In this document: positions 47,108 through 62,371 of the stretch, in pieces
Layout: each line of letters starts with the position of its first letter
Numbering within the stretch: position 1 is the first letter of the stretch
Source: an uncultured Solirubrobacteraceae bacterium
GTDB taxonomy: Bacteria > Actinomycetota > Thermoleophilia > Solirubrobacterales > Solirubrobacteraceae
Direction of reading: 5' to 3'
Assembly: GCA_963701175.1 (NCBI GenBank)
Contig: OY969573.1
Span: 385,232-449,231 of the forward strand
Length of the DNA stretch: 64,000 bases
Position numbers and translations under genes: made by a program
The notes under the pieces: generated by a model
Database searches by the model: none
Told to the model about the DNA's origin: nothing
Seen by the model: the letters and a program-made list of their open reading frames with translations, nothing else

Positions 47108-49264
<2,157 letters not shown>

Positions 49265-49388
49265 CCCCGGGGCTTGCGGTGGCTTGCGGCTGTTAGCCGT
49301 TTGCCCTGCAAATCGAGCGGTTTTAGCTGAGAAGCGGCGCTGCCGTTTGCGGTTGCCTGCGGGCGTTGCATTGTCACCCCGTTGCCCC

Positions 49389-49937
49389 CTAGGACCAGAC
49401 GCCAGCGGCGCGCAAGGCGGCTGCCGCGAGAATCGCCAGCATCACGGAGAGTGCGCCGACATCACGCCAGCGGACGGAGCCGTGGGCCGCCTGATGGCCA
49501 GCCAGGAATGGCACAGCGACCGGAATGGCGACCAACACCATCGCGCTGCCAACGAGCCCGATCGTGATGTCCGATTTGGCCTGTGCAGTCGGGTGTCCGG
49601 TGGCAAGCACGTGGAGCGCCGCGGTCGCTCCAAGCACGGGCCAAAGCAGCAACGTGAACGCATTGAGCAGGGCAGCAAACTCGCCGCGCGAGAGGAGGTC
49701 GAAGATTTTGGCCTGGTAAACCATCGCTAGGTAGAGGACCGGGATGATCGTGGCCGTCACCTCGTAGAACGCGAGCGGGTCGCCGTGCGGGTGGGCCGCT
49801 GCGGCAGCGGCGACGGCGGCCGCTTTGGTCGCAGCGCCTACTTCATGAAGCGTCGTGATGAGCGTGCTGGGGTGCGGGTGCGCCGCCAGTCTCAGCCGCG
49901 CCAGCACCACTGACCGCGGCATCAAGAAAGGCAGCAT
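49389..49937 (-). CDS. membrane protein (3-4 TM), element cargo
   Basis: hydrophobic helices FYEVTATIIPVLYLAM etc.; 5' end overlaps the integrase tail, start uncertain. Confidence 0.6.
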   Translation of the reverse strand: MLPFLMPRSVVLARLRLAAHPHPSTLITTLHEVGAATKAAAVAAAAAAHPHGDPLAFYEVTATIIPVLYLAMVYQAKIFDLLSRGEFAALLNAFTLLLWPVLGATAALHVLATGHPTAQAKSDITIGLVGSAMVLVAIPVAVPFLAGHQAAHGSVRWRDVGALSVMLAILAAAALRAAGVWS

Positions 49938-50973
49938 CCCCTAAACCCTCGTCCATCAGGTGGACGTAAGTGCGCAGCGTGAAGCCGGGATCGGCGTGCC
50001 CCAGCCACTCTTGGACTTGCTTGACGTCCCGCCCGGCGGCGAACAGGAGCGAGGCACAGGTGTGCCGGAACGTGTGGAAGCCCACCCACTCCATGCCCAG
50101 CGCAGCCGCAGCGGGCGCCAGGACCCGCTTGCGCAGGTTGTGCGGCGCCATCGGCGTCCCGGCCTTGGTCGGCCACAGGGGCGCCTGCGGACCGCCGTAG
50201 CGCTTCCCCCGCAGCCCCAACAGCGTGGCGACCATACCCGGCGCCAGCGGGACGTCGCGCACGCTGTGGCCGGTTTTGAGGTTGCGTTCTTCGCCCTTGT
50301 AGATCTGGCGCCGCACCTTGACGTGCGGGCGTGCGCCAAGCTCCACGTCTTCCCAGCGCAGCCCTATGGCCTCGCTGATCCGCAGCCCGGTTTGCGCCAG
50401 GAATGTAAAGAACGGCCGCCACTCGGACGGCAGCGCTGCCAGCACCAGGCCAAGCTCGGCACGCGTCATGACCTTGACCTTGCTGGGGGTGGGCGCCAGG
50501 TCCAGGCTCACGCCTTGGCAGGGATTGGCCGCGATGTCGCCGTGCTGGTAGGCCGTTGCGAACAGCACCTTCAGCGCGACCATGTGGGCGCGGATGCTGG
50601 GCGTGCCGGTACCTTCCGACTGCAACTGCCCCACGAAGGCTTCAATGTCTTTCGGGCGAATGTCCTTCATGCGCTGGCGGCCAAAGAACGGGATTGCGTG
50701 CCGCTCAATGGCGCGCTTATACCCCTGCCGCGTGAAGTGCGTGATGCCACGGCTGGGCTTGCGCCCACGGTAGGTCGCCAGCCACTTTTCGGCGTAATCG
50801 TCGAATCGCGCGTTGCTGGCGGGTTGGGTCTCACCCGTGGCCCGCTTGCCCTTGGCTTCGCGCGCCTCAGTTAGCGTGCGGAATGCTTCGCGGTGTTGTT
50901 TGCCCCGGTCGTACCACGTGATGACGAAGCGGCCACCCCGTTTGTAGATGCCGGGGTACTTCGTGCGTTCCAT
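49843..50973 (-). CDS. int: tyrosine recombinase / phage integrase
   Basis: GLRISE (R), FHTFRH (HxxR), LGH, LRTYVH (Y); N-terminal arm-binding and SAM-like regions; ATG 50973. Confidence 0.96.
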   Translation of the reverse strand: MERTKYPGIYKRGGRFVITWYDRGKQHREAFRTLTEAREAKGKRATGETQPASNARFDDYAEKWLATYRGRKPSRGITHFTRQGYKRAIERHAIPFFGRQRMKDIRPKDIEAFVGQLQSEGTGTPSIRAHMVALKVLFATAYQHGDIAANPCQGVSLDLAPTPSKVKVMTRAELGLVLAALPSEWRPFFTFLAQTGLRISEAIGLRWEDVELGARPHVKVRRQIYKGEERNLKTGHSVRDVPLAPGMVATLLGLRGKRYGGPQAPLWPTKAGTPMAPHNLRKRVLAPAAAALGMEWVGFHTFRHTCASLLFAAGRDVKQVQEWLGHADPGFTLRTYVHLMDEGLGDAAFLDAAVSGAGAAETGGAPAPQHAHHDAS

Positions 50974-51060
50974 TTTCGCGCCCAACTGCTTGCCTCCATT
51001 CACTTGCTGTTGCCCTGCAAGGCCGCGCGCCGCGACAGTGAGCGCACGCGCGGCTGGTGA

Positions 51061-51300
51061 CTACTCGGCCTGTGCCTGCCACGCTTTGATGAGCTTTTTC
51101 ACAGCCGGGTCGGTGAGCGACGGCCAGCGGTAGCGGCTGCCGAATCCCACGCCCAGATCTTGCGCCCGCAAGAACTTGCGGACCTCGCGCGGGTCCGCGC
51201 CGAGCTTGCTAGCGAGCTCTTTGACGCCGATCCCGCCCTCCGTAGCGGCCTTTGCGGCCTTAGTTGCGGTGCTGGGCTTGGCGGTAGCTGTAGCGGGCAT
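51061..51300 (-). CDS. small basic HTH-like DNA-binding protein
   Basis: 79 aa, IGVKELASKLGADPREVRKFLR; strong SD AGGAGG. Confidence 0.75.
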   Translation of the reverse strand: MPATATAKPSTATKAAKAATEGGIGVKELASKLGADPREVRKFLRAQDLGVGFGSRYRWPSLTDPAVKKLIKAWQAQAE

Positions 51301-51435
51301 GTGTGCCTCCTGTGTTTTGTGGTGAATTGGCTTGCTGTGGGCAAACCTACGACAAGCCGCTTCACACTCCCAAGGAAGACTTAGGTTGCGTATCCCTAAC
51401 CGGGACCTTTGTGATTTCGCCTCACAATCGAGCCG

Positions 51436-51702
51436 CCCCCCGGCGCTCAACCCAAGAGGTAAAAGGGAGCGCCGGGGGGACGACTGCCCAGCCGGGCCGA
51501 GCGTTCCGGCCGGGCGTTGCCCCGGTGATTACACACCGGGACAAACTATGGGGGGCCGTCTGCTTCGGTACCGACAGGGCCTAACAAACGACTCCCCCCG
51601 CCCACACTTGCCTTCCCGTGGGCGTGCCTCCGCGGAAAGGTAAACGGAGGCAAGCTGTCGGGCCGTCCGGGACCGGAGAAGTAGAGGGCACCGGACGGCC
51701 CG
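51436..51702. other. non-coding array of stem-loops
   Basis: stems at 51436-51479 (13 bp), 51486-51515, 51521-51540, 51601-51622, 51625-51652, 51659-51702 (12 bp). Confidence 0.75.
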
Positions 51703-51746
51703 CCCTGAGCACGGCTAGAGAAGGACCGCGCCCAAGCCTGTGAAGA

Positions 51747-52394
51747 TCAGCCTGCAACGTCCAGGCCCTCCAGCTCTGCCGCCTCTGCCACAGCTTCGCC
51801 GGGCTCCAGTTCGAGCAGTTCTATGCCGGGCGGCCGTGCCTTCCACCCTTGGATCACAGGCGCCAGCACGTAATCGTCCACAGGGAATGGCGGCATCGGC
51901 GCGATGCGTACGGCGTGGCAGAGAGGCACCCACTCCACCTGTGCTCGCGCCCACGCCTCCTGCGCGCGGCGGTACGCGTCTACCATCTCATGCAGCGCTG
52001 CGTCCGCCAGTTTGGAGGCTTTCTCAGCCTCCATGGCGAAGTCCTCGAAGTACGCGCTGTAAAGCTGCTCCAACTCGTACTCCAAATCCTTGCGGGAACT
52101 CAGCGCGCTGTTCGCACCGGCCAACGCCTTCTCGTACGCGTCGTCCGCGTTTGCCGCCCGCGTTTGGGCCTCAGTCAGTTGGGCATCGCTGCCCTTGCCC
52201 TTGGCCGCCGCGCTTTCGGCGTCTGCCAGCGCCCGGTGGAGCTTGCCTTGCAGGCGTTCTGCTTTCTGCCGGTAGCTCGTCTGTTGGCTGTAGTAGTCGT
52301 AACAACTCTGTATCTCTTGGCGCAGCCGGTCTCGCTCGCGGAGCGGATTGGGTTTGCTGCCTCTGAGTCCTCGTGCTTTGGCCATTGCCTTCAC
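51747..52394 (-). CDS. 215-aa alpha-helical coiled-coil protein
   Basis: heptad-rich Ala/Glu/Lys sequence; GTGA overlap with the upstream gene. Confidence 0.8.
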   Translation of the reverse strand: MKAMAKARGLRGSKPNPLRERDRLRQEIQSCYDYYSQQTSYRQKAERLQGKLHRALADAESAAAKGKGSDAQLTEAQTRAANADDAYEKALAGANSALSSRKDLEYELEQLYSAYFEDFAMEAEKASKLADAALHEMVDAYRRAQEAWARAQVEWVPLCHAVRIAPMPPFPVDDYVLAPVIQGWKARPPGIELLELEPGEAVAEAAELEGLDVAG

Positions 52395-52573
52395 CCTTCC
52401 GCTAGTACTGCGTTGACCTCGTCGATGCGCGCTGCCACTTCCTCTGTCGTCATTTTCTGTATACGTGGGATTGTTAGTTTCTCGGGCTGCTCGTCTTCCG
52501 CAGCCTGCCGCTCATCTTCTCGTCCCAAGTCGTAGGCTTTGCGCTCGGCGTCTGTGTCAAATTCTCTAGGCAC
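52391..52573 (-). CDS. 60-aa acidic helical protein, scaffold C-terminus-like
   Basis: SD AAGGAG, GTG 52573 overlapping the terL end; ends KMTTEEVAARIDEVNAVLAEG. Confidence 0.65.
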   Translation of the reverse strand: MPREFDTDAERKAYDLGREDERQAAEDEQPEKLTIPRIQKMTTEEVAARIDEVNAVLAEG

Positions 52574-54113
52574 TTTTGACTCCTTCCTTGACGAAGAATT
52601 GTCCTGCGGTAAACCCTTCTGGCTGCGCCTTGGCCACAGGCGCGTAGGTGGTGAATTGGTCGCTGGCCACGGATTGCAGGATTGGCACTTCCGGCACACA
52701 CAAGCCTCCCCCCGTTTCCACGGTGCCGCAGGCCAGCTCGGGCACCCTGGCGTCGGCCGGAGCCCGCACGGAGGCCGCTAGGTGTCCCAAATGACACACG
52801 ACGCGGTGGGCGCGCGGCGGTTTATGCGGCACGGTGGCCAGCATCAGGGAGTCGGCATGGTCGTCGTGGGTCGCGGCGTCCTCGGCCTCAATGTGAGTAA
52901 AGCCGCGCTCGCGCTGCTCAAAGCGCAGCCCGGCGAGCTGGCGCAGTAGGTCCGGATCGCGCGGTAGGACGAGCTGGCCGCGCTCAAGCATTCCCAGGAT
53001 GAGCGAGTAGCCCGTCGTTTTGGTCGCAGCGGTGGTGTGGACGAACTCCCAGCGGCGTTTGGTGCGGTCGTCGCGCTCGCTGCGTGATTGCGCGGCCAGG
53101 CGCCTAAGCTCGCTGCTGGGATAGGCCCCGACTCCGTTTACCTCGGTGGCCACATACGAGAAGGGCTTGAGATTGGCCACAGTCGCTTTGACGACCCTGT
53201 GCAGTTGTTCGCCGGGCGGCCAGCCGTAGGACAGCGCAACGAAGCGCGGCATCGGCTCTGCGTCTGGATTCAAGGCGCCCACAGGCAGTCGGAACACAGC
53301 CGCCACGCTGCAACAGTCGTAGGAGACGCCCGTGTCAAATCCCAGGATGCCTGTGGCCGGAATGCGCAGGTGCTCAAAGCGAGGGACCGCGATGTCGGCG
53401 GTGCAGCTCTCAAGAAGCTCCTGCGAGAACAGCGAGCCAATCGCGTCACCCCAAGTGCCATCCAGCTCGGCTGCCGCCTCGGCCCGGCTCATGCGTGAGC
53501 GCTCACGGGCTATGAAGTCGGCATCCAGCGTGGGATTCATGTCCATCGTCCAGCTGAACGAGGCGTAGTCCGAGTCGCCCTGCGCGCCGCGTTCATAGGC
53601 CCGACGGAAGAAGCCTTTTCCCCACGGGCTGCCCAAGATCAGGATTCGGCTACCGGTGCCGCGTTCATCCAGTGCGATGAAGCGCGCCGCGTTCCACATG
53701 TCGTCGGGCATGAACCCGGCCTCATCCAGAATGAGCAGCCGCACGCCTTTGCCCAGCCCGCGCACCTGGCGCTGCGAGGCGGGCAGCGACACGATTTCAC
53801 TCCGGTTGCTCAGAATGATGCGAGTGGCGTAGTCGTCCACCACGGCGCCGCGCGTGAGCGTGTGGGAGTTGAGGTCGTCGCCTATGGCTTCGCACACGCG
53901 CCGGGCGCTGTCCTGGCCCGCGCTCAGAATCACCACCTTGCATCCAGCGGTGCTGAAAGCGGTGTGCATCGCCTCAACCTGTGCAGTCTCAGTCTTGCCG
54001 GAGCGGCGTCCAGCGCTTACGACGCGGTAGAAAGCGGCGCTCTCCGTCAGGCGGCGCTGATGACCCCACAGCGGCCGGTGCAGGACCTTCTCTGCGAACT
54101 CCGCGACGTTCAT
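52566..54113 (-). CDS. terL: terminase large subunit
   Basis: LWGHQ, Walker A SAGRRSGKT, Walker B LLILDEAG, coupling motif GSP, nuclease GFDTG...EVNGVG...HDDHADS; ATG 54113 overlaps upstream TGA. Confidence 0.9.
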   Translation of the reverse strand: MNVAEFAEKVLHRPLWGHQRRLTESAAFYRVVSAGRRSGKTETAQVEAMHTAFSTAGCKVVILSAGQDSARRVCEAIGDDLNSHTLTRGAVVDDYATRIILSNRSEIVSLPASQRQVRGLGKGVRLLILDEAGFMPDDMWNAARFIALDERGTGSRILILGSPWGKGFFRRAYERGAQGDSDYASFSWTMDMNPTLDADFIARERSRMSRAEAAAELDGTWGDAIGSLFSQELLESCTADIAVPRFEHLRIPATGILGFDTGVSYDCCSVAAVFRLPVGALNPDAEPMPRFVALSYGWPPGEQLHRVVKATVANLKPFSYVATEVNGVGAYPSSELRRLAAQSRSERDDRTKRRWEFVHTTAATKTTGYSLILGMLERGQLVLPRDPDLLRQLAGLRFEQRERGFTHIEAEDAATHDDHADSLMLATVPHKPPRAHRVVCHLGHLAASVRAPADARVPELACGTVETGGGLCVPEVPILQSVASDQFTTYAPVAKAQPEGFTAGQFFVKEGVKSA

Positions 54114-54523
54114 CGGCTGGACGGGCTCGTTGGGAACTGCTCGCCGAATGCGGCGTAGGGCCGCCCGGACTCCCACCGCTTGGACGCCTGCTGAAACGAT
54201 TTCGGCGGGATCACGGTTTTCGGATTGATGCCGCGCTCCGGTGCGTGCTTGGGCGCGGTGTCCGTGGTCTGATGCATCTCGGGAGGGCTGACGTGCGCGG
54301 TCTCGCCCTGCGCGGCGTATGCCTCCACAGCCGGGATGAGTGCCACAGGCGTGGCAGGTTTGGGCTTCTCAAGATCGCTGAGCTGTGGGCCGTGCTGCGG
54401 GTAGTCGTCGGGGGTCGGGTTGTCGCTGGACTGGAACGGCGCCCGGCCAGGTGTCTCTAGTCCGGCCGGGACGCTGCCCACGTTGCCCCACGGCAGCGTG
54501 GGATTGGGGTTAGCTGACTTCAT
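54110..54523 (-). CDS. Pro-rich, probably disordered protein between terS and terL
   Basis: 137 aa; ATGA overlaps at both ends indicate translational coupling. Confidence 0.7.
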   Translation of the reverse strand: MKSANPNPTLPWGNVGSVPAGLETPGRAPFQSSDNPTPDDYPQHGPQLSDLEKPKPATPVALIPAVEAYAAQGETAHVSPPEMHQTTDTAPKHAPERGINPKTVIPPKSFQQASKRWESGRPYAAFGEQFPTSPSSR

Positions 54524-55005
54524 TCGGTACTCCCTTCGTCGTCGGATAAGCCGAGCTCGCGCAACTGCTGAGCGCGCAGCTTCGGGTCGGGATTGGACAT
54601 CGCGGTTGCCAGGTCGATTCGCTTGACGTCCACGCCCAACCGGGCGCGGGCGGCGGGATTCATGCCCAAGCTGGCGAGCAACTTGGCCGCTGTGGACGTC
54701 AGCCTGCGCTCCCAGTTGGCCGCGCTTCTCGGTTTGCCCTTGGCGTCCAGCGGACCGTGCTCGTCAATCCAAGCGCTGACGGACTCCAAGCGGGCCAACG
54801 TGCGGGCCGCCAGGCGCACCGTGTGGGCGTCCGCCGGGGGCAGTTGGTTGTTTGCCACGCGCACAGGCGCGGCGGCCGCCAGGGACTCGTACAGGCGGTC
54901 CTCAATCTCGCGCACGCGGACGGCCGGTGGCTCGGCGTTGGCGCCGTGGATGAGATGACGCTTGTTCCCTTTCGGCGGGGGAGGCGGCTTTCGCTTAGTG
55001 CCCAT
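54520..55005 (-). CDS. terS: terminase small subunit
   Basis: KGNKRHLIHGAN (GN.NA.KHG-like) and LGMNPAARARLG (P27-like LGLTP..RARL) motifs, upstream of terL. Confidence 0.78.
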   Translation of the reverse strand: MGTKRKPPPPPKGNKRHLIHGANAEPPAVRVREIEDRLYESLAAAAPVRVANNQLPPADAHTVRLAARTLARLESVSAWIDEHGPLDAKGKPRSAANWERRLTSTAAKLLASLGMNPAARARLGVDVKRIDLATAMSNPDPKLRAQQLRELGLSDDEGSTE

Positions 55006-55227
55006 CTCCAACCGTCCTTTCTCGTTTCGTACGCGAGAGGGGGTGCGCGAACTCCGCGTCCAGCTCCCCAGACAGGTATCCCCCCCGCCACGGGGTCACC
55101 CGGCACCGTGGAAGCGGCACAGGCCGCCGCTTGAGTGCCTGTTTTGCCGGTAGCGCATCGGCGTATAGACCCAGCAAACACGGGGTCCTACGCCGCAGGT
55201 CACAATGGGGTGACAATGCCCGCGGGC

Positions 55228-55527
55228 TCACTTGGCACCGCCCGCGCGTATCCAGGCGTCCAGCTCGGCGCGCTCAAATAACAGCCGCGCTCCCTCGTGC
55301 TCGTGCGGTATCCGACCCATGCTCACGAGCCGGTAAATACGGTGGCGACTGCATTTACAGTGCGCCGCCGCACCATCCACGTCCAACCACTCAGCCACAG
55401 GCTCCGCCGCCGGTAGCTGCGCAAGCACGCGCTCAGCTGCCGCTTGCACGACGGCCTCCATGAACGCGTCTGCCGCCGCCGGAGCGCGCGCAGCGCGCGG
55501 AGGCGGCTGTGCGGCGCGCTTCGTCAT
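55228..55527 (-). CDS. excisionase/AlpA-like HTH protein
   Basis: WLDVDGAAAHCKCSRHRIYRLVSMGRIP...RLLFERAELDAWI. Confidence 0.85.
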   Translation of the reverse strand: MTKRAAQPPPRAARAPAAADAFMEAVVQAAAERVLAQLPAAEPVAEWLDVDGAAAHCKCSRHRIYRLVSMGRIPHEHEGARLLFERAELDAWIRAGGAK

Positions 55528-55660
55528 GACGCGGACCTGATCTCCCGACACGTGAAGGAGTGCCTAATAGGGTCGGATCGCAGTCCTCCGCACTCGGCGC
55601 CCATATCGCGCCCGCGCGCTCTAACGTTGCGGCCACAGGCTGGATGGGGGCTCCGCGCGC

Positions 55661-57037
55661 TCACCGCTCCGCCTTCCGCTTGGCGCCCTTGCCACTACGG
55701 CGCCCACTACGGACACGCGTGGGGATGTCGGTTGTGTCTGTAGTAGCGGTAGTGGCTTTTGCAGGGGTTTTGCTACTACGGCTACTACGGTCAGTACGGA
55801 CGCCTATACGTGTGTCCGTAGTGGTGTCGGTAGTGGGCAGCAACCAGGACCACTCTGTCGGCGCTGGCACGCTGCCAGGGCGGCGCCTGTGGTAAATGCC
55901 CAGCTTGTCCCGGGCACGGGTTACGCTGCGCGCGTCGTAGCCGTCGGCCTCGCATTTCGCCACGATTGGCGATGCCAGATGCCACTGGCCGTCGTGCGGT
56001 AACAGCTCGCGAAGTAGGTCTTCTAGCCGCGCCGCTTTGGACGGGTTGCGCTCAGATTTGCGTTTCGCGGCGATCTGCGCAATGGCTTCGTCGGCTGACA
56101 GCTCGCCGCCGTCGCGCATGTCAACAGCTAGCGGGCCTGTGAGCTGTTCGCCGTGCTTGTTGCGAAACTGGTACTCGTCGATAGCAAACGTCAGCGCGTG
56201 CGGACGCTTGGCGTGATTGCTTTTTCCGTGGACAAGCAGCGTGCGCTCAGGCTCGTCAAGGTCATGGAACAGGAAGATGCTGCCGCGCGCTACCGCCCCG
56301 TATTGGTGAGCGCCAGGTGTGATGTCACGCGCGCTTTCTCCCGCCTTGTTTGTGTGCAGCGTCCCGATGACGGCGATGTCGGCGTCTTTAGCTAGCGTCT
56401 TAGCTGGACGCAGCGCGGCGCGGAGCTGCTTGGGGTGGTGGTCGTTGACCTCGACCCCGAGGTTGTCCACCAGTGAGTCCAGATACAGCACGCGTGCCCC
56501 CGAGTCATCGACTGCGTCACGTATGCGATCCTTGTCTCCCCCGAGCGTGATGTAGCCGTCGTCCGGCGGCTCCCATAGCTCGACGCGTCGCAGATCCGCT
56601 TTCGCGGCGTACAGGCGCGGCGTCCATACCGTGTCGAAGTCGTCCTCGTCGGCAATGACGGCGACGGTGACGGGTTCGCCGTGCAAGTCGCCGCGCAGCT
56701 TGCCGCGGGTAAGGCGTGCAAAGAGCCAAGGGACAAGCGTGCCCTTGCCGATGCCCTCTTCGCCGATCAGCAGCGTCAGGTACCCGAGAAGCACGCGGTC
56801 CTGCCACGCCCATTCGACTTGGCGGGCGCGTCGGATATCAGCCTTGCGACGCTTGAGCGGCGCGCGCGACTCCGACCTACCTTTAGCCGCCCGCGCTGCC
56901 GCCTCGTCTTCGATTTCTATGAGCCGGGCTGTCTCTCTAACGACGTCCTCACGGCTCGGTCCGTGGCCGTTCTGTTTCGCCGCCCATTCGGCCGCTTCGC
57001 GGTCGATACGCTCGGACGCTGTCTCGGTGGGGCTCAC
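55661..57037 (-). CDS. AAA ATPase / RepA-like replicative helicase with C-terminal winged helix
   Basis: Walker A GEEGIGKG, Walker B LYLDSL, HTNK, GAHQYGAVAR, KSNH. Confidence 0.85.
   Translation of the reverse strand: MSPTETASERIDREAAEWAAKQNGHGPSREDVVRETARLIEIEDEAAARAAKGRSESRAPLKRRKADIRRARQVEWAWQDRVLLGYLTLLIGEEGIGKGTLVPWLFARLTRGKLRGDLHGEPVTVAVIADEDDFDTVWTPRLYAAKADLRRVELWEPPDDGYITLGGDKDRIRDAVDDSGARVLYLDSLVDNLGVEVNDHHPKQLRAALRPAKTLAKDADIAVIGTLHTNKAGESARDITPGAHQYGAVARGSIFLFHDLDEPERTLLVHGKSNHAKRPHALTFAIDEYQFRNKHGEQLTGPLAVDMRDGGELSADEAIAQIAAKRKSERNPSKAARLEDLLRELLPHDGQWHLASPIVAKCEADGYDARSVTRARDKLGIYHRRRPGSVPAPTEWSWLLPTTDTTTDTRIGVRTDRSSRSSKTPAKATTATTDTTDIPTRVRSGRRSGKGAKRKAER
55694..55834. repeat. 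iteron-like ACTACGG repeats in both orientations inside the rep 3' end (candidate origin)
   Basis: ACTACGG at 55694, 55706, 55775, 55784; inverted exact copy at 55816 and variants at 55738, 55747, 55828. Confidence 0.65.
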
Positions 57038-57408
57038 TCCGGCTCACCGTCCCACGCTTCGACAACGCCGCCGAGCCCGAAGTAGTCCTCACTTACGGTA
57101 ATAAGGCGCGACCCGCGCCACGCTAAGTGAGGTTGGTCGCTATCAGGCGCGCCGCGTGCCGCGATGAACCGCCTGGCGCGGTCCCTACGGCTCCGGGCGC
57201 GTGCCCGCGGCCTGGCGGTGGCCGTAGCACGCGCAGGGCGCTTAGACGCCTTCGCGCCGGCGATGGCGCGGCGCACAAAACGGGGGAAATGCTCGACCTC
57301 GTCGCCGCAGCGCATAGGGCTGAGCCCGGCAATCTCGTCCGGCGACAATTGCGGCAGGCGATGGCGCCACGACCGCAGGCATTCGCGATGTTCGCGCTGT
57401 GCGCTCAC
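57034..57408 (-). CDS. Arg-rich hypothetical protein
   Basis: 124 aa; 4-bp overlaps with both neighbours. Confidence 0.65.
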   Translation of the reverse strand: MSAQREHRECLRSWRHRLPQLSPDEIAGLSPMRCGDEVEHFPRFVRRAIAGAKASKRPARATATARPRARARSRRDRARRFIAARGAPDSDQPHLAWRGSRLITVSEDYFGLGGVVEAWDGEPE

Positions 57409-57632
57409 GGCTTGTGTCCGTTCTGGCTTGGCCAGTCGATCTTGCCAAGCTCGGCTTCCAGCAGTTTCCTGGTGGACCTGAGTGGGTTGGGACTGCGGCC
57501 CGTCTCTATGTGGCTGATTCCCACATGCGTCATCCCGGTTCTGTCAGCGAGCTCGCGCAGACTGATTTTCATGCGTTTGCGCGCCGCGGCGACGGGATGG
57601 AGTGTGCCGTTCTTCGTTTCATTGAGCCGCAT
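57405..57632 (-). CDS. XRE/Cro-like HTH regulator
   Basis: RKRMKISLRELADRTGMTHVGISHIETGR. Confidence 0.85.
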   Translation of the reverse strand: MRLNETKNGTLHPVAAARKRMKISLRELADRTGMTHVGISHIETGRSPNPLRSTRKLLEAELGKIDWPSQNGHKP

Positions 57633-57642
57633 GTGTAGTATC

Positions 57643-57651
57643 AGTTTACCA
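57643..57651 (-). promoter_or_regulatory. extended -10 TGG-TAAACT for the cro-rep-xis-ter operon (near-leaderless)
   Basis: 10 nt upstream of ATG 57632; no SD seen. Confidence 0.55.
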
Positions 57652-57712
57652 CGCATGAATGGGCGGTCGGGCAGCGGCAACCCCGGCCAGGGCCACCGCT
57701 ACCCGCGCGTTC

Positions 57713-57976
57713 CTACTTAGGGGCGTAGCGGCAACGTGCGGTGATCGCCGCGCCCACCGCTCGCTCGGGCGAGTCACCCTCGTAGAGACGAGACGCGATT
57801 TCCCGCATCAGCGGGTGCAGCGCACTGATGGTGACGTCGGGCTGCCACTCCAGAAACGTCTCGATCTGCTCGCGCTGCTCTTCCACCGTCTCGGTAGGAC
57901 AGTCCAGCAATTGCTCCGTCGCCCACAACCGCAGCTCTGCCCGGCGCTCCTTCGACAGCTCTTTGGTCTTCGCCAT
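57713..57976 (-). CDS. hypothetical protein (element)
   Basis: 87 aa, SD AGGAGG. Confidence 0.7.
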   Translation of the reverse strand: MAKTKELSKERRAELRLWATEQLLDCPTETVEEQREQIETFLEWQPDVTISALHPLMREIASRLYEGDSPERAVGAAITARCRYAPK

Positions 57977-58159
57977 TTTCAGAACCTCCTTTCGTTAGGG
58001 GGTCCCAAAGTCCACCACCGGGAGCCCCGGCTGTGGGCAAATTCGAGCCCTAACACGCGCACGCGCGTTTATAGGGCCGCCAGAGTGCGTTTTCTTTCCG
58101 TCCTGGGCGGCTGATAGTTCTATATCCCCAAATCGTCGTGAATCGAAAGGAGCGGCCCC

Positions 58160-58450
58160 ATGGAGGCCGGAGAAATACGTTTTCAGCTGGAGATGCTGGG
58201 CAAAGACCTCGACCGATACAAGTCGGATCAGATAGTGGAGTGGCGGGTCGGCAAGGTCGCGAACGCCTTGATTGAGGAGGCCCGGGCGGCGTTGCCCGGC
58301 AACCCGGTGTTGGAGGCGATCGAGCCGTTTACACCGACCGTGCGACAGGGCGGCTACGTCGCGAAAGCGAAGGCCGCAGACGTAACCGCGATCGTGCGGC
58401 AGGCGGCGACGGTCCTTCCCGTGTCAGTGCCCAAATTCGCCGTCGTGTGA
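58160..58450 (+). CDS. hypothetical protein (element cargo, only plus-strand gene)
   Basis: 96 aa, SD AAAGGAG. Confidence 0.72.
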   Translation: MEAGEIRFQLEMLGKDLDRYKSDQIVEWRVGKVANALIEEARAALPGNPVLEAIEPFTPTVRQGGYVAKAKAADVTAIVRQAATVLPVSVPKFAVV

Positions 58451-58587
58451 GCTAGTCCCGCTCGGCCGTCCCTTGGCGGCAGATTGTGATTTTGATTGTC
58501 ACCCTGCCCTGTGGACGGCCCCTGCTCTCAGCAAAAACCGCCTACTTGCAGGCAGTTATCGCGCTCGGAGTCCCCGCGATTCGCTAC

Positions 58588-58599
58588 TCATCAAGTAGC
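58588..58599 (+). repeat. attR core TCATCAAGTAGC within inverted repeat CGCTACT-CATCA-AGTAGCG
   Basis: identical to 49254-49265. Confidence 0.9.
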
Positions 58600-58607
58600 G
58601 CGCTGCC

Positions 58608-58817
58608 CTACTCCGCCGCACAGAAAACCCCGCTCGTCGTGCGGGGTTTTCTGTCGCCCTCAGCGGCGTCGCTGCGCGCGTTCTTCCCGCTTGACCCTTT
58701 TCTGTTCTGCCCGTTTCCGCTCGGCTTCGCTCCTGGCACGGTTCTCGGCCTTTCGCCTTCGGCCGGAAGTGCCGCGGTCTCGGGCGCGGTCCCAGACCGT
58801 GCGTATCGCGGATACAC
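58608..58817 (-). CDS. possible small basic disordered protein
   Basis: 69 aa following the GH18 stop by 6 bp; no SD; runs through the terminator. Confidence 0.3.
   Translation of the reverse strand: MYPRYARSGTAPETAALPAEGERPRTVPGAKPSGNGQNRKGSSGKNARSDAAEGDRKPRTTSGVFCAAE
58620..58654. terminator. bidirectional intrinsic terminator (original GSIII terminator)
   Basis: 14-bp stem ACAGAAAACCCCGC/GCGGGGTTTTCTGT with 7-nt loop, 20 bp past attR. Confidence 0.85.
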
Positions 58818-58823
58818 CGGGGG

Positions 58824-59882
58824 TCAGCCCACCAATGGCGAGGACCACAGCGACTGCTCCTCGCTGCCGAGCCGCCACAGGCCGACCTGGAAGCCGGCCG
58901 CGCGGGCGATCCCCAGCACGTCGAGGACCGCCTTGGAGTCCATGTACCAGACCTCGTGGGGAACCCCTTCGGGGCCGGCGTAGGTGAAGCTCAGCTCGCC
59001 CGAGAGCGGGTCGCGGACGGCGTGCGCCCCGACCGAGCGGGCGAGTGCCACCACGCGGTCGTACTGGTAGGCGGTGGCCGGCCCGGTGCTCTGTGAGCCG
59101 AGCGGCTGGCCGGCCGCGGTGCCGGCCCAGTCGAGGCCGTACATCGGAGCGCCGACGACGAAGCGGGAATGCTCGGGGAGCGTCCGCAGGAACCCCACCA
59201 CCGCGCTCACGAACGACAGCGTCGAGATGGCCCCCGGGGGCGAGGTCGCCCAGTGGGTGCCCCACGCCATCACGAACACGGTGTCCGCCGAGGCCGACAG
59301 CGCACGGTCGTCGTAGAAGGCGTAGGGCGCGCCCGGGCCTTCGTGGGTGACGCCGTCCACCACCACCGCCAGCCGGCGATGACGGCGGTGGAGTTTTTCC
59401 GCCAGCGCGGCCACGAACGAGCTGAGCGCTTCGCGGTCTTCCGGGCCGTCGTTCTCGAGGTCCAGGCAGAGCCCCGCATAGGCCGGCTTGAGGGCCAGCG
59501 CCGCGAGCCTGGCGAGCAGCTCCTGACGAGGTCCGGGTTCGCTCAGCAGCCGGTGGACGATGGCGCCGTCCTGGCAGTTGAAGCGGGGCATCACCGGGAT
59601 CGAGTGTCCCCGCGCGAAGGCGTCGATCGAGGGCACGTCCCCACCCGCCACACCGGCGCCGGAGGGGGTGCATTCGAAGTAGGTGGGGTACACGACCGAG
59701 ACGTCTCCCGCGTGTGCCCGCAGGTCCGCGAGCGAGTCGGGGGAGCTGCTCAGCAGGAACGCCTGCACGCCCCCGGCGGCGCGGTGGCTACGAGCCGCCG
59801 TCGCGACCGCGCCGGATGCGGGCCCGGCGGCCCAGCCCAGCGCGGCCGCCGCGGCGGCCGCGACCAGGGGACGGCCCCTCAA
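58824..59882 (-). CDS. secreted GH18-family glycoside hydrolase
   Basis: TTG 59882 overlapping upstream TGA; signal peptide; AGLCLDLEN, VMAW, GAPMYG.DW, GLWRLG. Confidence 0.85.
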   Translation of the reverse strand: MRGRPLVAAAAAAALGWAAGPASGAVATAARSHRAAGGVQAFLLSSSPDSLADLRAHAGDVSVVYPTYFECTPSGAGVAGGDVPSIDAFARGHSIPVMPRFNCQDGAIVHRLLSEPGPRQELLARLAALALKPAYAGLCLDLENDGPEDREALSSFVAALAEKLHRRHRRLAVVVDGVTHEGPGAPYAFYDDRALSASADTVFVMAWGTHWATSPPGAISTLSFVSAVVGFLRTLPEHSRFVVGAPMYGLDWAGTAAGQPLGSQSTGPATAYQYDRVVALARSVGAHAVRDPLSGELSFTYAGPEGVPHEVWYMDSKAVLDVLGIARAAGFQVGLWRLGSEEQSLWSSPLVG

Positions 59883-62371
59883 GCGCCTTCTCCGCCGAGC
59901 AGCGGCAGCTGCCAGATCGTCTGGTCCTCTTTCCCGAGCCGCCACAGGCCCAGTTTCAGGCCCAGCGAGTTGGCCAGGTTCGCGCGTACTTCCAGCGAGT
60001 GCCGGTTGACGTACCAGACCTGGTGGTTGACGCCGTTGGAGCTGTAGGAGAAATGCGGGCTCTCGCTCGAGCCTTCCCATTCCGGGGTGATGCCCAGCGA
60101 TTCGGCGAGGCTCATGATTTCGCTGTACTGCAGCGCGGTGCCGGGGTTGGACGGTCCGCCACCGTTGGGCCAGTCGACGCCGTACAGGGGCATCGCCAGC
60201 ACGAACTTGTGCAGGTCGGGCATCGTCGCGGTGTATTTGGCGACCTGGCTGAACCAGTTGTATTCGTCGATCGAGCCGGGGCCGGAGGTCACCCAGTGGT
60301 AGCCCCAGTCCATCACCAGCACGTAGTCGGACGGGCCGGAGAGGGCGGCGTCGTTGTACATCGCCGCGCGTCCGGTGGGGACGTTCCAGTACTTCGCGGT
60401 CACCACCGTCGAGAGCTTGTCGCCCTGGGCATGGAGCCGTTCGGCGAGCATCGTGATAAAGCTGGTGAACGGTTCGCGGTCGTTCGGCGGCGCGTTCTCG
60501 AAATCGATCTGGATCCCGCTGTAGCCGTAGGTCCGGCAGTATTCGGCCAGCTTTTCGATCGTCTGCTGCCTGACCGATGGCTGGTTGAGGATCGCTTCCT
60601 CGGCGCTGACGTTGAGGCAGTTCACGCGCGGCAGCACTTCGACCTTGCGCAGCGTGGCCCAGTGGGTGATCAGGGGGTCGTCGCCGCCCACGATGGTCCC
60701 GCCCGGTCCGCATTCGAAGTAGGTCGGGTACACGACCCCGATCTGCTGGTAGTGGGCCTCGAGGTCTTCGAAGCTTTCGTCGGTCGAGGACAACAGGAAG
60801 GCCTGCGCGTTGCCGTGGGTGGGCGGCGGGTCGGCGGTCTGCAGGACCAGCGGCTGGCTCGGTTCGCTGACCGCCCCCAGCGAGTCCACGGCGCTGACGG
60901 TGATCGAGTATTCGCTGGCGGCGGCGAGGTTTTCGAGCGTCCGCTCGGTGCTGTCGCTCTGGCCCACGGGAATGTCGTCGCGGAACAGCCGGTAGCCGAC
61001 GATGTCGCCGCTGACCGCGGTGCTGGGCTGCCAGCTGATCTGGGCCGAGCTGCTGGTGACGGCGCTGGCGGTCACGTCCTGGGGCGCCGGCGGCGGCGTG
61101 TGCGTGGTGAGGACCACCAGTTCGGGGGTCGGCGCGCTCAGGTACCCGGCCGAGTCGCGCGTGCGTACGGTGAACGTGTAGCGCCGCGAGGAGGCGAGCG
61201 CGACCGTTGCGATCTGGGCATCGACGAAGCCGACCGGCTCGCCGTCCTCTTCCAGGAGATAGCCGCTGACGGTGCCGCCGGGGGCCGTCCCGGCCTGCCA
61301 GGAGAGCGTCACCGAGGTGTCGGTCACGGTGACCGCCGACAGCAGCGAGGGTGGCGTCGGGGCGGGGTGCTCGGTGGTGAGCTTGAGTGACCCGCTGCGA
61401 GCGCTTTCGGCCCCGTCGGTGTCCAGCGCGGCGACCGTGATCGTGTACGTCTGGGGGAAGTTCAGGTGCGTCAGGCGGATCGAGGGGGACGACGTCTGGG
61501 CAACGAGGGTGCCGTTGCGGTACACCCGGTAGCCGGCCAGCGGGGCAGCGCCCGCCCTGCTCGGCAGCCACAGCACGGTGGCTTCCGTGCCGCTCACTTC
61601 GGCCGCGCTGAGGCCTTCGGGCATGCTCGGCGGCGCTCCGGCGGCGTGGGGGCGTACGAGCGCTCCGATCACCAGCCCGTGGCCGGAGGGGCCGAGTCGG
61701 TCACGGGTGTCGACGGCGGCGACGGTCACCCGGTGGGTGCGGGTCGAGCTGAGGATCAGCGTGTAGCGCAGCGACCGCGTCTGCCCCGCGACGGCGCCGT
61801 CGAGGTCGACCCGGTAGCCGGCGATGGGGGCGTCCCCGCGGCGGGCGGCCCGCCACCCGATGACCGTGCCGGTGGCGGTGCGGGAGAGCACCTTCAGACC
61901 CGGGACCACACCCGGCATCCGCACCTGCACCGTCTCGCTCAGCCGGGCCGTGCACCGTAGCCCCCCGTTCCCGTAGCGGGCCTGGACGGCGAAGGTGGTC
62001 TGGGCCCCGGGCGTGACCGCCAGCACCATCGAGGGCTCGTCGGTCTGGCCCACGGTCCGCCCCGCGCGCAGCACCCGGTAGACGACCCCGCTGGATCCGC
62101 GTGCCCCGCTGGGAGCGCTCCAGCTCAGGCGGGCCTGGGAGCCGTGCAGGCGCGTCAGCTGCAGGCGCCCGGGGGCGTGGGTCGAGCACGGCCCGCGGTG
62201 CACGGCCGCCGGCGAGTGGCTGGCGTGGGAGGGCCCTTTGGTTGCGGCCCGCCCCGCCGGCGCGCCGCCGACCGTCAGCGAGACGGCGGCGGCGCCGGCC
62301 ACGGCGGGCAGCGCCACGAGCGCCACCGTCACCACCAGCCCCAGCGAAAGCGGCCGCCGGCGGGCGCTCAC
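59879..62371 (-). CDS. secreted protein: five fibronectin type III repeats plus GH18 domain
   Basis: five W...Y(R/L)(V/L) FnIII units; SGIQIDFEN, VMDWGYHW, MPLYG.DW, GLWRLG. Confidence 0.88.
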   Translation of the reverse strand: MSARRRPLSLGLVVTVALVALPAVAGAAAVSLTVGGAPAGRAATKGPSHASHSPAAVHRGPCSTHAPGRLQLTRLHGSQARLSWSAPSGARGSSGVVYRVLRAGRTVGQTDEPSMVLAVTPGAQTTFAVQARYGNGGLRCTARLSETVQVRMPGVVPGLKVLSRTATGTVIGWRAARRGDAPIAGYRVDLDGAVAGQTRSLRYTLILSSTRTHRVTVAAVDTRDRLGPSGHGLVIGALVRPHAAGAPPSMPEGLSAAEVSGTEATVLWLPSRAGAAPLAGYRVYRNGTLVAQTSSPSIRLTHLNFPQTYTITVAALDTDGAESARSGSLKLTTEHPAPTPPSLLSAVTVTDTSVTLSWQAGTAPGGTVSGYLLEEDGEPVGFVDAQIATVALASSRRYTFTVRTRDSAGYLSAPTPELVVLTTHTPPPAPQDVTASAVTSSSAQISWQPSTAVSGDIVGYRLFRDDIPVGQSDSTERTLENLAAASEYSITVSAVDSLGAVSEPSQPLVLQTADPPPTHGNAQAFLLSSTDESFEDLEAHYQQIGVVYPTYFECGPGGTIVGGDDPLITHWATLRKVEVLPRVNCLNVSAEEAILNQPSVRQQTIEKLAEYCRTYGYSGIQIDFENAPPNDREPFTSFITMLAERLHAQGDKLSTVVTAKYWNVPTGRAAMYNDAALSGPSDYVLVMDWGYHWVTSGPGSIDEYNWFSQVAKYTATMPDLHKFVLAMPLYGVDWPNGGGPSNPGTALQYSEIMSLAESLGITPEWEGSSESPHFSYSSNGVNHQVWYVNRHSLEVRANLANSLGLKLGLWRLGKEDQTIWQLPLLGGEGA

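What the first reader, a model, noticed from the sequence alone, without database searches (positions are those of the whole stretch)
49254..58599. Complete 9.3-kb capsid-less integrated element: candidate new type of actinobacterial phage satellite
Seen: both ends are defined by a 12-bp repeat 9334 bp apart. Almost all genes run one way: orf-cro-orf-rep-xis-terS-orf-terL-orf-orf, then a small HTH gene and int. No ORF inside is large enough or has motifs for a major capsid, portal, protease, tail or lysin. Known: classic PICIs carry TerS only, while cf-PICIs carry terminase plus portal and capsid. Inference: this is a satellite with a full terminase but borrowed shell, an intermediate strategy, in a lineage (probably Thermoleophilia) where satellites are little described.
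Basis: partly seen in the sequence, partly recalled or inferred. Interest (0 to 1): 0.9.

Follow-up and report, generated by a model that had tools for sequence, protein, structure and literature searches.

The report
Terminase-only integrated phage-satellite-like element
A 9.3-kb mobile element inserted at the end of a glutamine synthetase gene carries its own integrase, replication genes and a complete DNA-packaging motor, but no virus shell genes. It belongs to a conserved, previously undescribed family in Thermoleophilia that most likely spreads by borrowing another phage's capsids.

Summary
A 12-bp direct repeat (49254 and 58588) brackets 9,334 bp inserted exactly at the stop codon of a type III glutamine synthetase gene. 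A related element sits at the same site with the same core in another genome, and 29 relatives have no integrase gene downstream of that stop codon.

TerL is a complete ATPase plus nuclease terminase by fold. No ORF is a capsid, portal, protease, tail or lysin. The 215-aa candidate is a three-helix coiled coil.

The decayed-prophage reading is rejected. About 18 distinct related elements, including a second diverged copy at a tRNA gene in this genome, keep the same compact order HTH_17–TerS–TerL–~60 aa–~200 aa–…–Int. Usually only 1.3–3.1 kb lies between TerL and Int, and none has head genes.

The best reading (about 0.6) is a helper-dependent satellite of a new "terminase-only" type, between PICI (TerS only) and cf-PICI (terminase plus head genes). 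Some relatives add a tape-measure gene.

No helper prophage is detectable in this genome. The scan's other notes all lie on this same window; none is on other DNA.

The parts
47108..49264 (+). Target gene: type III glutamine synthetase. Its last 11 nt, including the stop codon, lie inside the att core, so integration leaves the protein unchanged.
   Evidence: Pfam GSIII_N 1.5e-76, Gln-synt_C and Gln-synt_C-ter. The C-terminus is identical to that of relatives.
49254..49265 (.). attL core, TCATCAAGTAGC.
   Evidence: Exact 12-mer found only here and at 58588. The same core flanks the related element in L006.
49389..49937 (-). orf182, a probable small membrane protein (cargo or exclusion function?). 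Its true start is uncertain, because the ORF overlaps the int 3' end by 95 nt.
   Evidence: GC3 0.80. Hydrophobic C-terminal half. 35% match to the ORF after int in L006. No family hit.
49843..51003 (-). Tyrosine integrase.
   Evidence: Pfam Phage_integrase 4e-20 and Phage_int_SAM_3; phrog_1 1.3e-66.
51061..51300 (-). 79-aa conserved small HTH-like protein just upstream of int. It is a candidate excision directionality factor or regulator.
   Evidence: Weak phrog_66 excisionase hit, 0.005. Conserved at 49-78% in L006, L012, L069 and element B.
51436..51702 (.). Non-coding stretch with several perfect GC-rich hairpins (13-bp and 12-bp stems), lying after the packaging operon. It may hold terminators and/or the pac/cos site; neither was tested.
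   Evidence: Inverted repeats I2 and I4, 100% complementary.
51747..52394 (-). orf215, an all-helical coiled-coil protein whose start overlaps the stop of the ~60-aa ORF upstream. Function unknown; it is proposed to be a helper-assembly or interference factor.
   Evidence: AF2 pLDDT 78, helices 17-64, 70-115 and 117-162. No fold hit at E<0.019. Only coiled-coil hits in PDB and Pfam. Family of 172 representative clusters.
52391..52573 (-). ~60-aa acidic protein. It overlaps the terL stop by 8 nt and the orf215 start by 4 nt.
   Evidence: Homologues in the same position in 8 or more loci, with a conserved C-terminal helix-like segment.
52566..54113 (-). Terminase large subunit, 515 aa from the called start (the ORF is open to 54176). 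It has both an ATPase and a nuclease domain.
   Evidence: phrog_2 4.2e-35 and Terminase_6N 8.8e-9. AF2 pLDDT 87. Foldseek matches full-length T4 gp17, D6E, HK97 and Sf6 TerL at E 1e-16 to 1e-13, and the G20c nuclease domain at TM 0.72-0.76. Invariant acidic residues in the C-terminal half.
54110..54523 (-). orf137, a proline-rich linker gene. It overlaps terS and terL by 4 nt (ATGA) at each end. It is variable or absent in relatives.
   Evidence: Coordinates. Homologues at 41-47% in L004 and L017; absent in L009, L011 and L069.
54520..55011 (-). Terminase small subunit.
   Evidence: Terminase_4 3e-5, at the Pfam cut-off; phrog_83 2.4e-5. Family members hit Terminase_4 or Terminase_6. Always directly upstream of TerL.
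55228..55551 (-). HTH_17 (excisionase/AlpA-type) DNA-binding protein that heads the packaging operon.
   Evidence: HTH_17 6.8e-10 and phrog_66 1.5e-7. Found in the same position in nearly all related loci.
55661..57037 (-). Replication protein, a RepA/DnaB-like AAA_25 NTPase.
   Evidence: AAA_25 4e-18; phrog_10729 'DNA polymerase/primase' 6.7e-20.
55692..55836 (.). Iteron-like imperfect palindrome of ACTACGG heptamers inside the 3' end of rep. It is a candidate origin.
   Evidence: 65-nt arms 74% complementary, with several heptamer repeats in both orientations.
57034..57408 (-). orf124, function unknown. It overlaps cro and rep by 4 nt at each end.
   Evidence: Homologues in L006 and L012 at 42-51%. 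No family hit.
57405..57680 (-). HTH_3 (Cro/CI-type) regulator.
   Evidence: HTH_3 3.6e-8; phrog_3 and phrog_8 repressor families.
57713..57976 (-). orf87, the first gene of the leftward operon. Function unknown.
   Evidence: GC3 0.82. No family hit.
58160..58450 (+). orf96, transcribed divergently from the main operon. It is a candidate partner in a genetic switch.
   Evidence: GC3 0.79. 53% homologue in the same divergent position in L012. No HTH detected.
58588..58599 (.). attR core, TCATCAAGTAGC. A hairpin followed by a T-run lies downstream at about 58620-58655, probably the displaced GSIII terminator.

Best explanation
Window 49254-58599 is an intact, integrated member of a conserved family of about 9-13-kb integrative elements of Thermoleophilia (Solirubrobacterales). 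It most likely lives as a helper-dependent phage satellite.

**Shown**
- A tyrosine integrase placed the element at an att core overlapping the GSIII stop codon.
- The element carries a Cro/CI-type regulator with a divergent partner gene.
- It carries its own replication protein next to an iteron-like palindrome.
- An HTH_17 gene lies directly upstream of the overlapping run terS-orf137-terL-orf60-orf215.
- TerL has both the ATPase motor and the nuclease domain.
- No head, portal, tail or lysis gene is present.

**Inferred**
- When a suitable tailed phage infects the cell, the element excises and replicates.
- Its TerS recognises the element's own pac/cos site.
- Its own TerL cuts the DNA and pumps it into procapsids through the helper's portal.
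- The particles are completed with helper tails and released by helper lysis.
- The conserved ~60-aa and ~215-aa helical proteins downstream of TerL are proposed to adapt or interfere with helper head assembly or packaging. This is the weakest step.

Carrying the whole terminase would make packaging specificity and DNA cutting independent of the helper. It would also compete with the helper's terminase for procapsids.
For: - **Boundaries and mobility:**
- **Gene content:** Int, HTH_3, AAA_25, HTH_17, TerS and TerL.
- **Complete TerL fold:**. The Walker A-type GRRSGKT and LILDEAG motifs are visible in the sequence, and acidic residues in the nuclease half are invariant across 28 homologues.
- **No structural genes:**. 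orf215 is a helical bundle with no fold match.
- **Architecture conserved at 28-79% TerL identity:** seen in about 18 distinct elements. They are element B in the same genome, L004, L006, the two in L008, L009, L010, L011, L012, L013, L014 (cut short by an IS110), L017, L068, L069, L070 and L076-L079. L022 and L028 show the same TerS-TerL-Int spacing, but their ORFs were not scanned against families.
- **Little room for head genes:** the gap from the TerL end to the Int start is 1.3-3.1 kb in 11 independent loci.
- **Modular replication genes, as in PICIs:** AAA_25, primase plus D5 helicase, Prim-Pol plus D5, or a 638-aa protein.
- **Patchy distribution:** 4 of 121 species genomes in the genus and 2 of 301 across the class.
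- **Two diverged copies in this genome,** with different att sites (GSIII and a tRNA) and different rep genes.
- **Relatives with tail-type genes:** some carry a tape-measure gene, and one of these also a pectate-lyase-like protein. This ties the family to siphovirus-type helpers. A TMP-carrying actinobacterial satellite has been isolated (PMC12822802).
- **A distant cousin occurs as a circular 10.95-kb contig** in IMG/VR.
Against: - No helper phage was identified. The genome has no hit to Phage_capsid, Phage_portal, SPP1_portal or PhageMin_Tail and no third TerL.
- The closest cultured-phage TerL is only 25.7% identical. No full phage carrying a related TerL was found, so portal compatibility is unsupported.
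- There is no evidence of excision, replication or encapsidation.
- TerS scores only at the Pfam cut-off.
- The roles of orf60 and orf215 are guesses.
- A satellite TerL docking on a foreign portal has no described precedent that I could find.
Confidence: 0.6

Rival explanations
1. The element is a decayed prophage. A once-complete temperate phage lost its head, tail and lysis genes by deletion, leaving int, regulators, rep and the terminase.
For: TerS-TerL is a phage module. Some relatives (L010, L011, L076) retain a tape-measure gene, which could be read as different stages of decay.
Against: - The same compact order recurs in about 18 distinct elements whose TerLs are 28-79% identical. All genes are intact and many overlap by 4 nt, as expected for translational coupling.
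- orf215, orf60 and the small HTH gene are conserved as proteins.
- No portal or capsid remnant and no TMP remnant is present here.
- No relative has head genes.
- Independent decay would not converge on one architecture.
Confidence: 0.04
2. The element is an integrative element that is not encapsidated. In this reading TerS/TerL serve another purpose. One option is anti-phage interference: they sequester procapsids or cut helper concatemers as a defence island. Another is processing of the element's own replication concatemers. Transfer would then go by another route such as vesicles, transformation or an unknown conjugation-like path.
For: - No helper was found.
- The family is almost absent from the viral contig collection.
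- Satellites mobilised by competence rather than capsids have been reported (title and abstract of PMC13376191).
- VEIME-like elements were also seen in vesicle fractions (PMC9618062).
Against: - A full TerL with a conserved nuclease, a cognate TerS, and tight linkage to int, rep and HTH_17 is the signature of packaging of the element's own DNA.
- No known defence family was hit.
- No FtsK/Tra or relaxase gene is in the element.
- Interference and satellite transfer are not mutually exclusive in known PICIs.
Confidence: 0.2
3. The element is a minimal autonomous virus or virus-like element. In this reading its unknown proteins (orf215, orf137, orf124, orf87, orf96, orf182) include unrecognised structural proteins.
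For: - Six or seven ORFs have no family or fold assignment.
- A distant cousin is a circular contig classed as viral in IMG/VR.
Against: - TerL-type motors are known only with portal-bearing HK97-fold capsids (established knowledge).
- No ORF exceeds 215 aa apart from Int, Rep and TerL.
- orf215 is a three-helix coiled coil.
- 9.3 kb is below the size of any known tailed phage (my knowledge).
- No lysis gene was found.
Confidence: 0.06
4. The element is an AICE-like actinomycete integrative, conjugative or mobilisable element.
For: The int, HTH_17/xis and rep modules and the size resemble pSAM2-type AICEs (my knowledge). The host belongs to Actinomycetota.
Against: No FtsK/SpoIIIE-type Tra, Spd, Nudix or relaxase domain occurs in any ORF. 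A TerS-TerL operon occupies the place of the transfer genes.
Confidence: 0.05

Closest known systems
PICIs (phage-inducible chromosomal islands, SaPI type and Gram-negative alpA type)
   Same: - Size around 10 kb, site-specific integration and a tyrosine integrase at one end.
- A Cro/CI-type regulator with a divergent gene.
- Its own, exchangeable replication module next to an iteron-like origin.
- An AlpA/Xis-type HTH ahead of a packaging operon containing terS.
- No structural or lysis genes.
   Different: PICIs carry TerS (or Rpp) only and use the helper's TerL. Here a complete TerL is present and conserved throughout the family. In SatelliteFinder's definitions, terL is a marker that separates cf-PICI from PICI (PMC10085698). 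No homologue of CpmA/B, Ppi or Stl was detected. Induction by a helper was not tested.
Capsid-forming PICIs (cf-PICI)
   Same: They encode both terminase subunits and depend on a helper for the remaining virion parts.
   Different: cf-PICIs also encode the major capsid protein, portal, protease, head-tail adaptor and connector, and HNH. None of these is present here or in any relative examined. cf-PICIs steal only tails, whereas this element would have to steal heads and tails.
EPIPs of Mycolicibacterium (bioRxiv 2025, PMC12822802)
   Same: These are ~11-kb satellites of Actinomycetota with TerS, an integrase and an HTH. They carry a tape-measure gene, as do the relatives of this element in L010, L011 and L076.
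   Different: EPIPs have a serine integrase, head-tail adaptor and stopper, scaffold and (as listed) a capsid-related gene, and no TerL is reported. The element in this window has no TMP.
Streptomyces satellites MulchRoom and MiniFlayer (PMC10690885)
   Same: They are actinobacterial satellites with TerS and TerL. MulchRoom also has a tyrosine integrase.
   Different: They encode portal, major capsid protein, scaffold and a head-tail adaptor, and lack replication genes. That is the opposite division of labour from this element.
Marine VEIMEs and PICMIs
   Same: They are small integrative elements without a major capsid gene. Some have TerS and 'motor-like ATPases', and they are packaged as concatemers in full-size helper capsids. 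That is a possible packaging mode for a 9.3-kb genome.
   Different: No TerL with a nuclease domain is described for them. Their hosts (marine Proteobacteria and others) and their gene sets are unrelated.

Membership tests
Phage satellite (general) | Small integrative element lacking the genes for an autonomous virion and lysis. | tested here: met
   9,334 bp between the att cores. No capsid, portal, tail or lysin family in any ORF. orf215 is not an HK97 fold.
Phage satellite (general) | Mobilised by, and packaged in particles of, a helper phage. | not testable with these tools
No helper prophage was found in the genome.
PICI | Integrase plus att sites, a regulatory module, its own replication module, and a packaging module with terS. 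| tested here: met
PICI | Relies on the helper's TerL; terL is not part of the island. | tested here: not met
   A full TerL is present. Definition taken from PMC10085698.
cf-PICI | Encodes TerS and TerL. | tested here: met
cf-PICI | Encodes the major capsid protein, portal, protease and head-tail adaptor/connector (HNH is usual). | tested here: not met
   None in the element and none in about 18 related elements.
P4-like satellites | Core genes psu, delta, sid, epsilon, alpA, the alpha primase and an integrase. | tested here: not met
   Pfam and PHROGs gave no Psu, Sid or Delta hit. Only int and an HTH_17 are shared.
AICE (actinomycete integrative and conjugative element) | FtsK/SpoIIIE-type Tra translocase together with int, xis and rep. 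| tested here: not met
   No FtsK_SpoIIIE or relaxase domain in any ORF.
Tailed-phage large terminase (TerL) | N-terminal ASCE ATPase plus C-terminal RNase-H-like nuclease. | tested here: met
   AF2 model with pLDDT 87. It matches full-length TerLs and the isolated ATPase and nuclease domains. Catalytic activity was not assayed.
Defective prophage | Remnants or pseudogenes of structural genes; architecture not conserved among relatives. | tested here: not met
   The genes are intact and many overlap by 4 nt. The order is conserved at 28-79% TerL identity. No TMP, portal or capsid remnant is present.

The most novel reading that the evidence does not exclude
The TerS-TerL motor of this family may not use a helper's HK97-type procapsid at all. 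It might instead drive export or containment of the element's DNA by a route not yet described, for example loading into a non-canonical container built with the conserved ~60-aa and ~215-aa helical proteins, or into vesicles. That would be a terminase working outside a tailed-phage virion. A less extreme version, which I consider likely if the satellite reading is right, is that this is a TerL clade carried only by satellites. Sister lineages would then swap in single morphogenetic modules (tape measure, tailspike-like protein), giving modular hijackers that replace one helper part at a time.
Probability: 0.07. Interest if true: 0.95.

Novelty: new variant of a known kind. Interest (0 to 1): 0.66.

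Why it matters
The described satellite families found in the papers searched here either borrow the helper's packaging motor (PICI, P4, PLE, PICMI, VEIME) or bring the motor together with a whole head (cf-PICI, MulchRoom/MiniFlayer). A conserved family that brings only the complete terminase would fill the gap between them.

It raises a concrete mechanistic question: how does a foreign TerL dock on a helper portal and outcompete the helper's own terminase?

It would also extend satellites to Thermoleophilia, an abundant and poorly cultured class of soil bacteria. I found no paper on phages or satellites of that class in the library.

The tape-measure-bearing sister elements, together with the recently isolated EPIPs, suggest that actinobacterial satellites tamper with tails as well as heads.

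On the practical side, current satellite finders built on the four classical models would probably miss this family. That is my inference from the model definitions in PMC10085698; SatelliteFinder was not run.

Tried and rejected
**Searches that found little or nothing**
- A scan of genome contigs with the single TerL protein found nothing. The repeat with an alignment found 22 loci.
No read-level test of attP/attB junctions, excision or coverage excess could be done.
- Pfam, PHROGs, NCBIfam and PADLOC gave nothing for orf87, orf96, orf124, orf137, orf60, orf215 and orf182.
- The orf215 profile against PDB and Pfam gave only generic coiled-coil hits. Foldseek against viral structures gave only non-significant hits to helical tape-measure segments. 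I do not read these as homology.
- The ~205- and 228-aa proteins of the TMP-bearing relatives are not detectably related to orf215 (hhalign probability below 2%).

**Tests of specific ideas**
- I looked for a deletion scar or TMP remnant in this genome by tblastn. None was found.
- I tested whether the stand-alone ~9-kb contigs L007, L068, L069 and L070 are circular excised forms. They are not. L007 is simply the integrated locus plus short flanks. L069 begins and ends in a tRNA-like att repeat. These are assembly breaks, not evidence of circles.
- Only the distant L015 is circular.

**Left aside**
- Remote ATPase-only matches in other phyla (L029-L037) were not pursued. They cover only the ATPase domain and are outside the family.
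- The literature searches found no description of TerS-plus-TerL-only satellites. The library lacks most subscription journals, so this is not proof that none exists.

Full report

Yes. The 12-mer TCATCAAGTAGC occurs exactly twice in the window, at 49254 and 58588, which is 9,334 bp start to start. By my arithmetic, about 0.04 such matches are expected by chance between two ~800-bp end zones.

The left copy holds the last codons (…F-I-K) and the stop of a 718-aa type III glutamine synthetase gene, 47108-49264 (GSIII_N 1.5e-76). Integration therefore leaves the protein unchanged. The probable original terminator hairpin is moved to about 58620-58655.

Three independent lines make the ends secure:
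- A related element in another Solirubrobacteraceae genome (L006; TerL 58% identical, Int 82%) sits at the same GSIII stop codon and is flanked by TTCATCAAGTAG.
- In 29 relatives, the GSIII gene ends with the same conserved target sequence. No integrase or other element gene lies within 1.5 kb downstream.
- In one relative (L051), the homologue of the window's right flank (58841-59624) lies about 0.7 kb after GSIII, against 9.6 kb here.

**2. Anatomy**

The DNA is about 65% G+C, so I chose among the many open frames by third-position G+C.

The minus strand carries, in order:
- orf87 (57713-57976)
- an HTH_3 Cro/CI-type regulator (57405-57680)
- orf124
- an AAA_25 RepA/DnaB-like replication protein (55661-57037)
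- an HTH_17 excisionase/AlpA-type protein (55228-55551)
- TerS (54520-55011)
- proline-rich orf137
- TerL (52566-54113)
- a ~60-aa acidic protein (52391-52573)
- orf215 (51747-52394)
- a hairpin-rich non-coding stretch (51436-51702)
- a conserved 79-aa HTH-like protein (51061-51300)
- a tyrosine integrase (49843-51003)
- a probable membrane ORF (49389-49937)

One gene, orf96 (58160-58450), is transcribed divergently.

Neighbouring genes overlap by 4 nt (ATGA) in two runs: cro-orf124-rep and terS-orf137-terL. terL-orf60 overlaps by 8 nt and orf60-orf215 by 4 nt. This points to two translationally coupled operons.

An imperfect 65-nt-arm palindrome of ACTACGG heptamers lies in the 3' end of rep. 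It is a candidate origin.

**3. Is the terminase complete?**

TerL matches phrog_2 (4.2e-35) and Terminase_6N. An AlphaFold model built on 28 homologues has pLDDT 87 and pTM 0.82.

The model matches full-length large terminases of T4, D6E, HK97 and Sf6 over 450-500 columns at E 1e-16 to 1e-13. It also matches, separately, the isolated ATPase domain of P74-26 (target TM 0.75) and the nuclease domain of G20c (TM 0.72-0.76).

Walker-type motifs and a set of invariant acidic residues in the C-terminal half are conserved across the family.

TerS reaches only the Pfam cut-off by itself (Terminase_4, 24.8 bits). However, its homologues in other loci hit Terminase_4 or Terminase_6, and it always sits directly upstream of TerL.

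**4. Is any ORF a hidden capsid, portal or tail gene?**

No family hit of that kind appears in Pfam or PHROGs. NCBIfam and PADLOC found nothing for the unassigned ORFs.

Apart from Int, Rep and TerL, the largest ORF is orf215. It belongs to a family of 172 representative clusters, mostly 180-260 aa long. Its model (pLDDT 78) is three long helices (17-64, 70-115, 117-162) plus a disordered tail.

It has no significant structural match in the viral library; the best E is 0.019, to helical tape-measure segments. Against PDB and Pfam it gives only coiled-coil noise. It is not an HK97-fold protein. The other unknown ORFs are 60-182 aa, which is too small.

**5. Decayed prophage or designed architecture?**

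The same genome holds a second, diverged copy, element B (G000:C1 about 302161-311811). It has cro, a different 638-aa rep, HTH_17, TerS, TerL (59% identical), the ~60-aa gene, an orf215 homologue (40%), the small HTH gene and Int (63%). It is flanked by a direct repeat of at least 44 bp that is the 3' end of a tRNA gene.

More than 160 TerL homologues exist in public data, named Solirubrobacteraceae, Thermoleophilaceae, Solirubrobacterales and Actinomycetota.

I inspected about 18 distinct elements:
- element B
- L004 (the same locus as L005 and L016)
- L006 (the same locus as L018)
- two tandem elements in L008
- L009, L010, L011, L012, L013, L017, L068, L069 and L070
- L014, which an IS110 cuts short
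- L076-L079

L022 and L028 show the same TerS-TerL-Int spacing by tblastn only. Their ORFs were not scanned against families.

All keep the core HTH_17-TerS-(x)-TerL-~60 aa-~200 aa-…-Int. None has a portal, capsid or protease family hit.

The distance from the TerL end to the Int start is 1.3-3.1 kb in eleven independent loci. That is too short for portal plus capsid.

The replication module is swapped between members (AAA_25; primase plus D5 helicase; Prim-Pol plus D5), as in PICIs.

Conservation of the small unknown genes as proteins and of the order down to 28% TerL identity excludes independent decay.

No TMP remnant or other scar is present here.

**6. Distribution**

The family is patchy. 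The TerL profile hits 4 of 121 species genomes in the genus and 2 of 301 in a class-wide draw, counts that include this genome.

This genome carries two copies with different att sites and different rep genes. That would avoid competition for an integration site and for a replication origin (inference).

**7. What about a helper?**

None is visible. The genome (one 3.93-Mb contig, completeness 94%) has no match to Phage_capsid, Phage_portal, SPP1_portal or PhageMin_Tail. It has no TerL other than the two satellite copies. A helper would therefore have to be an incoming phage.

The closest TerL among 50,697 deposited phage genomes is 25.7% identical (Thermus phage Riverbug). Every more distant relative I opened, down to 28% identity, was again a small element without head genes.

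As far as sampled, this TerL clade is carried only by such elements. This parallels what is reported for cf-PICI TerL and capsid genes (PMC10085698). It also means portal compatibility with any real phage is unsupported.

**8. Relatives with tail genes**

L010, L011 and L076 carry a tape-measure protein of 1126-1377 aa between the post-TerL genes and int (PhageMin_Tail up to 2e-42). L076 is from the same genus as this genome.

L076 also has a 435-aa protein with a weak pectate-lyase-like hit of tailspike type (5.5e-5, below the cut-off).

A preprint describes isolated ~11-kb Mycolicibacterium satellites (EPIPs) that carry TerS and a tape-measure gene and have altered tail lengths (PMC12822802). 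A TMP in a satellite therefore has a precedent in Actinomycetota. This ties the present family to siphovirus-type helpers.

**9. Most likely mechanism**

*Shown:*
- site-specific integration
- the gene set and its conservation
- the complete terminase fold
- the absence of structural genes

*Inferred:*
- On infection by a compatible tailed phage, the switch (HTH_3 regulator and divergent orf96) opens.
- Int, with the 79-aa protein and/or the HTH_17 protein, excises the element.
- Rep replicates it from the iteron palindrome.
- The HTH_17-led operon makes TerS and TerL.
- These recognise and cut the element's own DNA and pump it into helper procapsids.
- The helper supplies tails and lysis.
- The 9.3-kb genome could be packaged as a monomer in downsized capsids or as concatemers in full-size capsids, as in VEIMEs and PICMIs.
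- The conserved orf60 and orf215 pair is the obvious candidate for a head-assembly, portal-adaptor or interference function. Nothing but position and conservation supports that.

I put this reading at about 0.6.

**10. Rivals**

| Rival | Confidence | Main point against |
|---|---|---|
| Decayed prophage | about 0.04 | Refuted by section 5 |
| Non-encapsidated integrative element using the terminase for interference or concatemer processing | about 0.2 | Kept alive by the missing helper and near absence from viral contigs |
| Minimal autonomous virus with unrecognised structural proteins | about 0.06 | No portal, no ORF of capsid size, no lysis gene |
| AICE-like conjugative element | about 0.05 | No FtsK-type Tra or relaxase |

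**11. Comparison with known systems**

The element works like a PICI in every module except one: it brings its own TerL. In the published models, terL is a cf-PICI marker.

It fails cf-PICI membership because all head and connector genes are missing. It differs from MulchRoom and MiniFlayer, which have portal and capsid genes but lack replication genes. It differs from EPIPs, which have TerS, adaptor, stopper, TMP and a serine integrase but no reported TerL. VEIMEs have TerS and 'motor-like ATPases' but no described TerL.

I found no paper describing a satellite that carries TerS plus TerL only, and nothing on mobile elements of Thermoleophilia. The library is incomplete.

**12. Verdict**

I class it as a new variant of a known kind: a phage satellite or PICI-like element with a terminase-only hijack module, in an unexplored class.

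Interest is 0.66. The family is well defined, conserved and mechanistically puzzling. But its lifestyle is still an inference and no helper is known.

The other notes of this scan on the locus (TerS-X-TerL module, GSIII integration, helical orf215, iteron array, hairpin array, ~60-aa protein) all lie on this same window. They are not independent evidence.

Noticed in passing
G000:C1:302161-311811 (L003:6161-15811), about 83 kb upstream of the window start: A second, diverged copy of the same element type lies in the same genome (TerL 59% identical, Int 63%, orf215 homologue 40%). It has a different 638-aa replication protein. It is integrated next to a tRNA gene and flanked by a direct repeat of at least 44 bp equal to the tRNA 3' end.
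   Followed up: partly
G000:C1 about 155796-158920: A third locus has a rep homologue (31% identical), an HTH_17/xis homologue (41%) and a tyrosine integrase (28%), but no TerL match. It may be another kind of small integrative element.
   Followed up: no
L011:12411-16514, L010:7643-11023, L076:12634-16767: Sister elements carry a tape-measure protein of 1126-1377 aa (PhageMin_Tail) after TerL and two or three small genes, and still have no capsid or portal. L076 also has a 435-aa protein with a weak pectate-lyase/tailspike-like hit (L076:17437-18744). These may be satellites that modify helper tails.
   Followed up: partly
L015:1-11076 (IMG/VR UViG_3300022181_000055): This contig has a 127-bp terminal overlap, so it is a circular molecule of about 10.95 kb. 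It carries a DnaB/AAA_25 helicase, a serine recombinase, TerS, TerL (33% identical), HTH_17 proteins and a sigma-like protein, and has no capsid family hit. It is a distant episomal cousin.
   Followed up: partly
L008:1-15200: Two related elements lie in tandem, with TerLs that are 28% and 50% identical to the query. SnoaL-like genes are inserted next to TerS in both.
   Followed up: no
L017:12404-14207, L013:11551-14681: The slot between the ~200-aa gene and the small HTH/int genes is variable. L017 has about 1.8 kb of extra sequence there. L013 has several small ORFs and a GT2 glycosyltransferase. This looks like a cargo or accessory slot.
   Followed up: no
L069:1-16 and 9436-9451: A Logan contig of 9,451 bp holding a whole related element begins and ends with the same 16 bases, which resemble a tRNA T-arm. 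The assembly broke at the att repeats, so the ~9-kb stand-alone contigs seen are not evidence of circles.
   Followed up: yes
window 58824-63983: To the right of the element lies a large minus-strand ORF with fibronectin type III repeats and a GH18 domain (59879-62371). It was not examined further.
   Followed up: no
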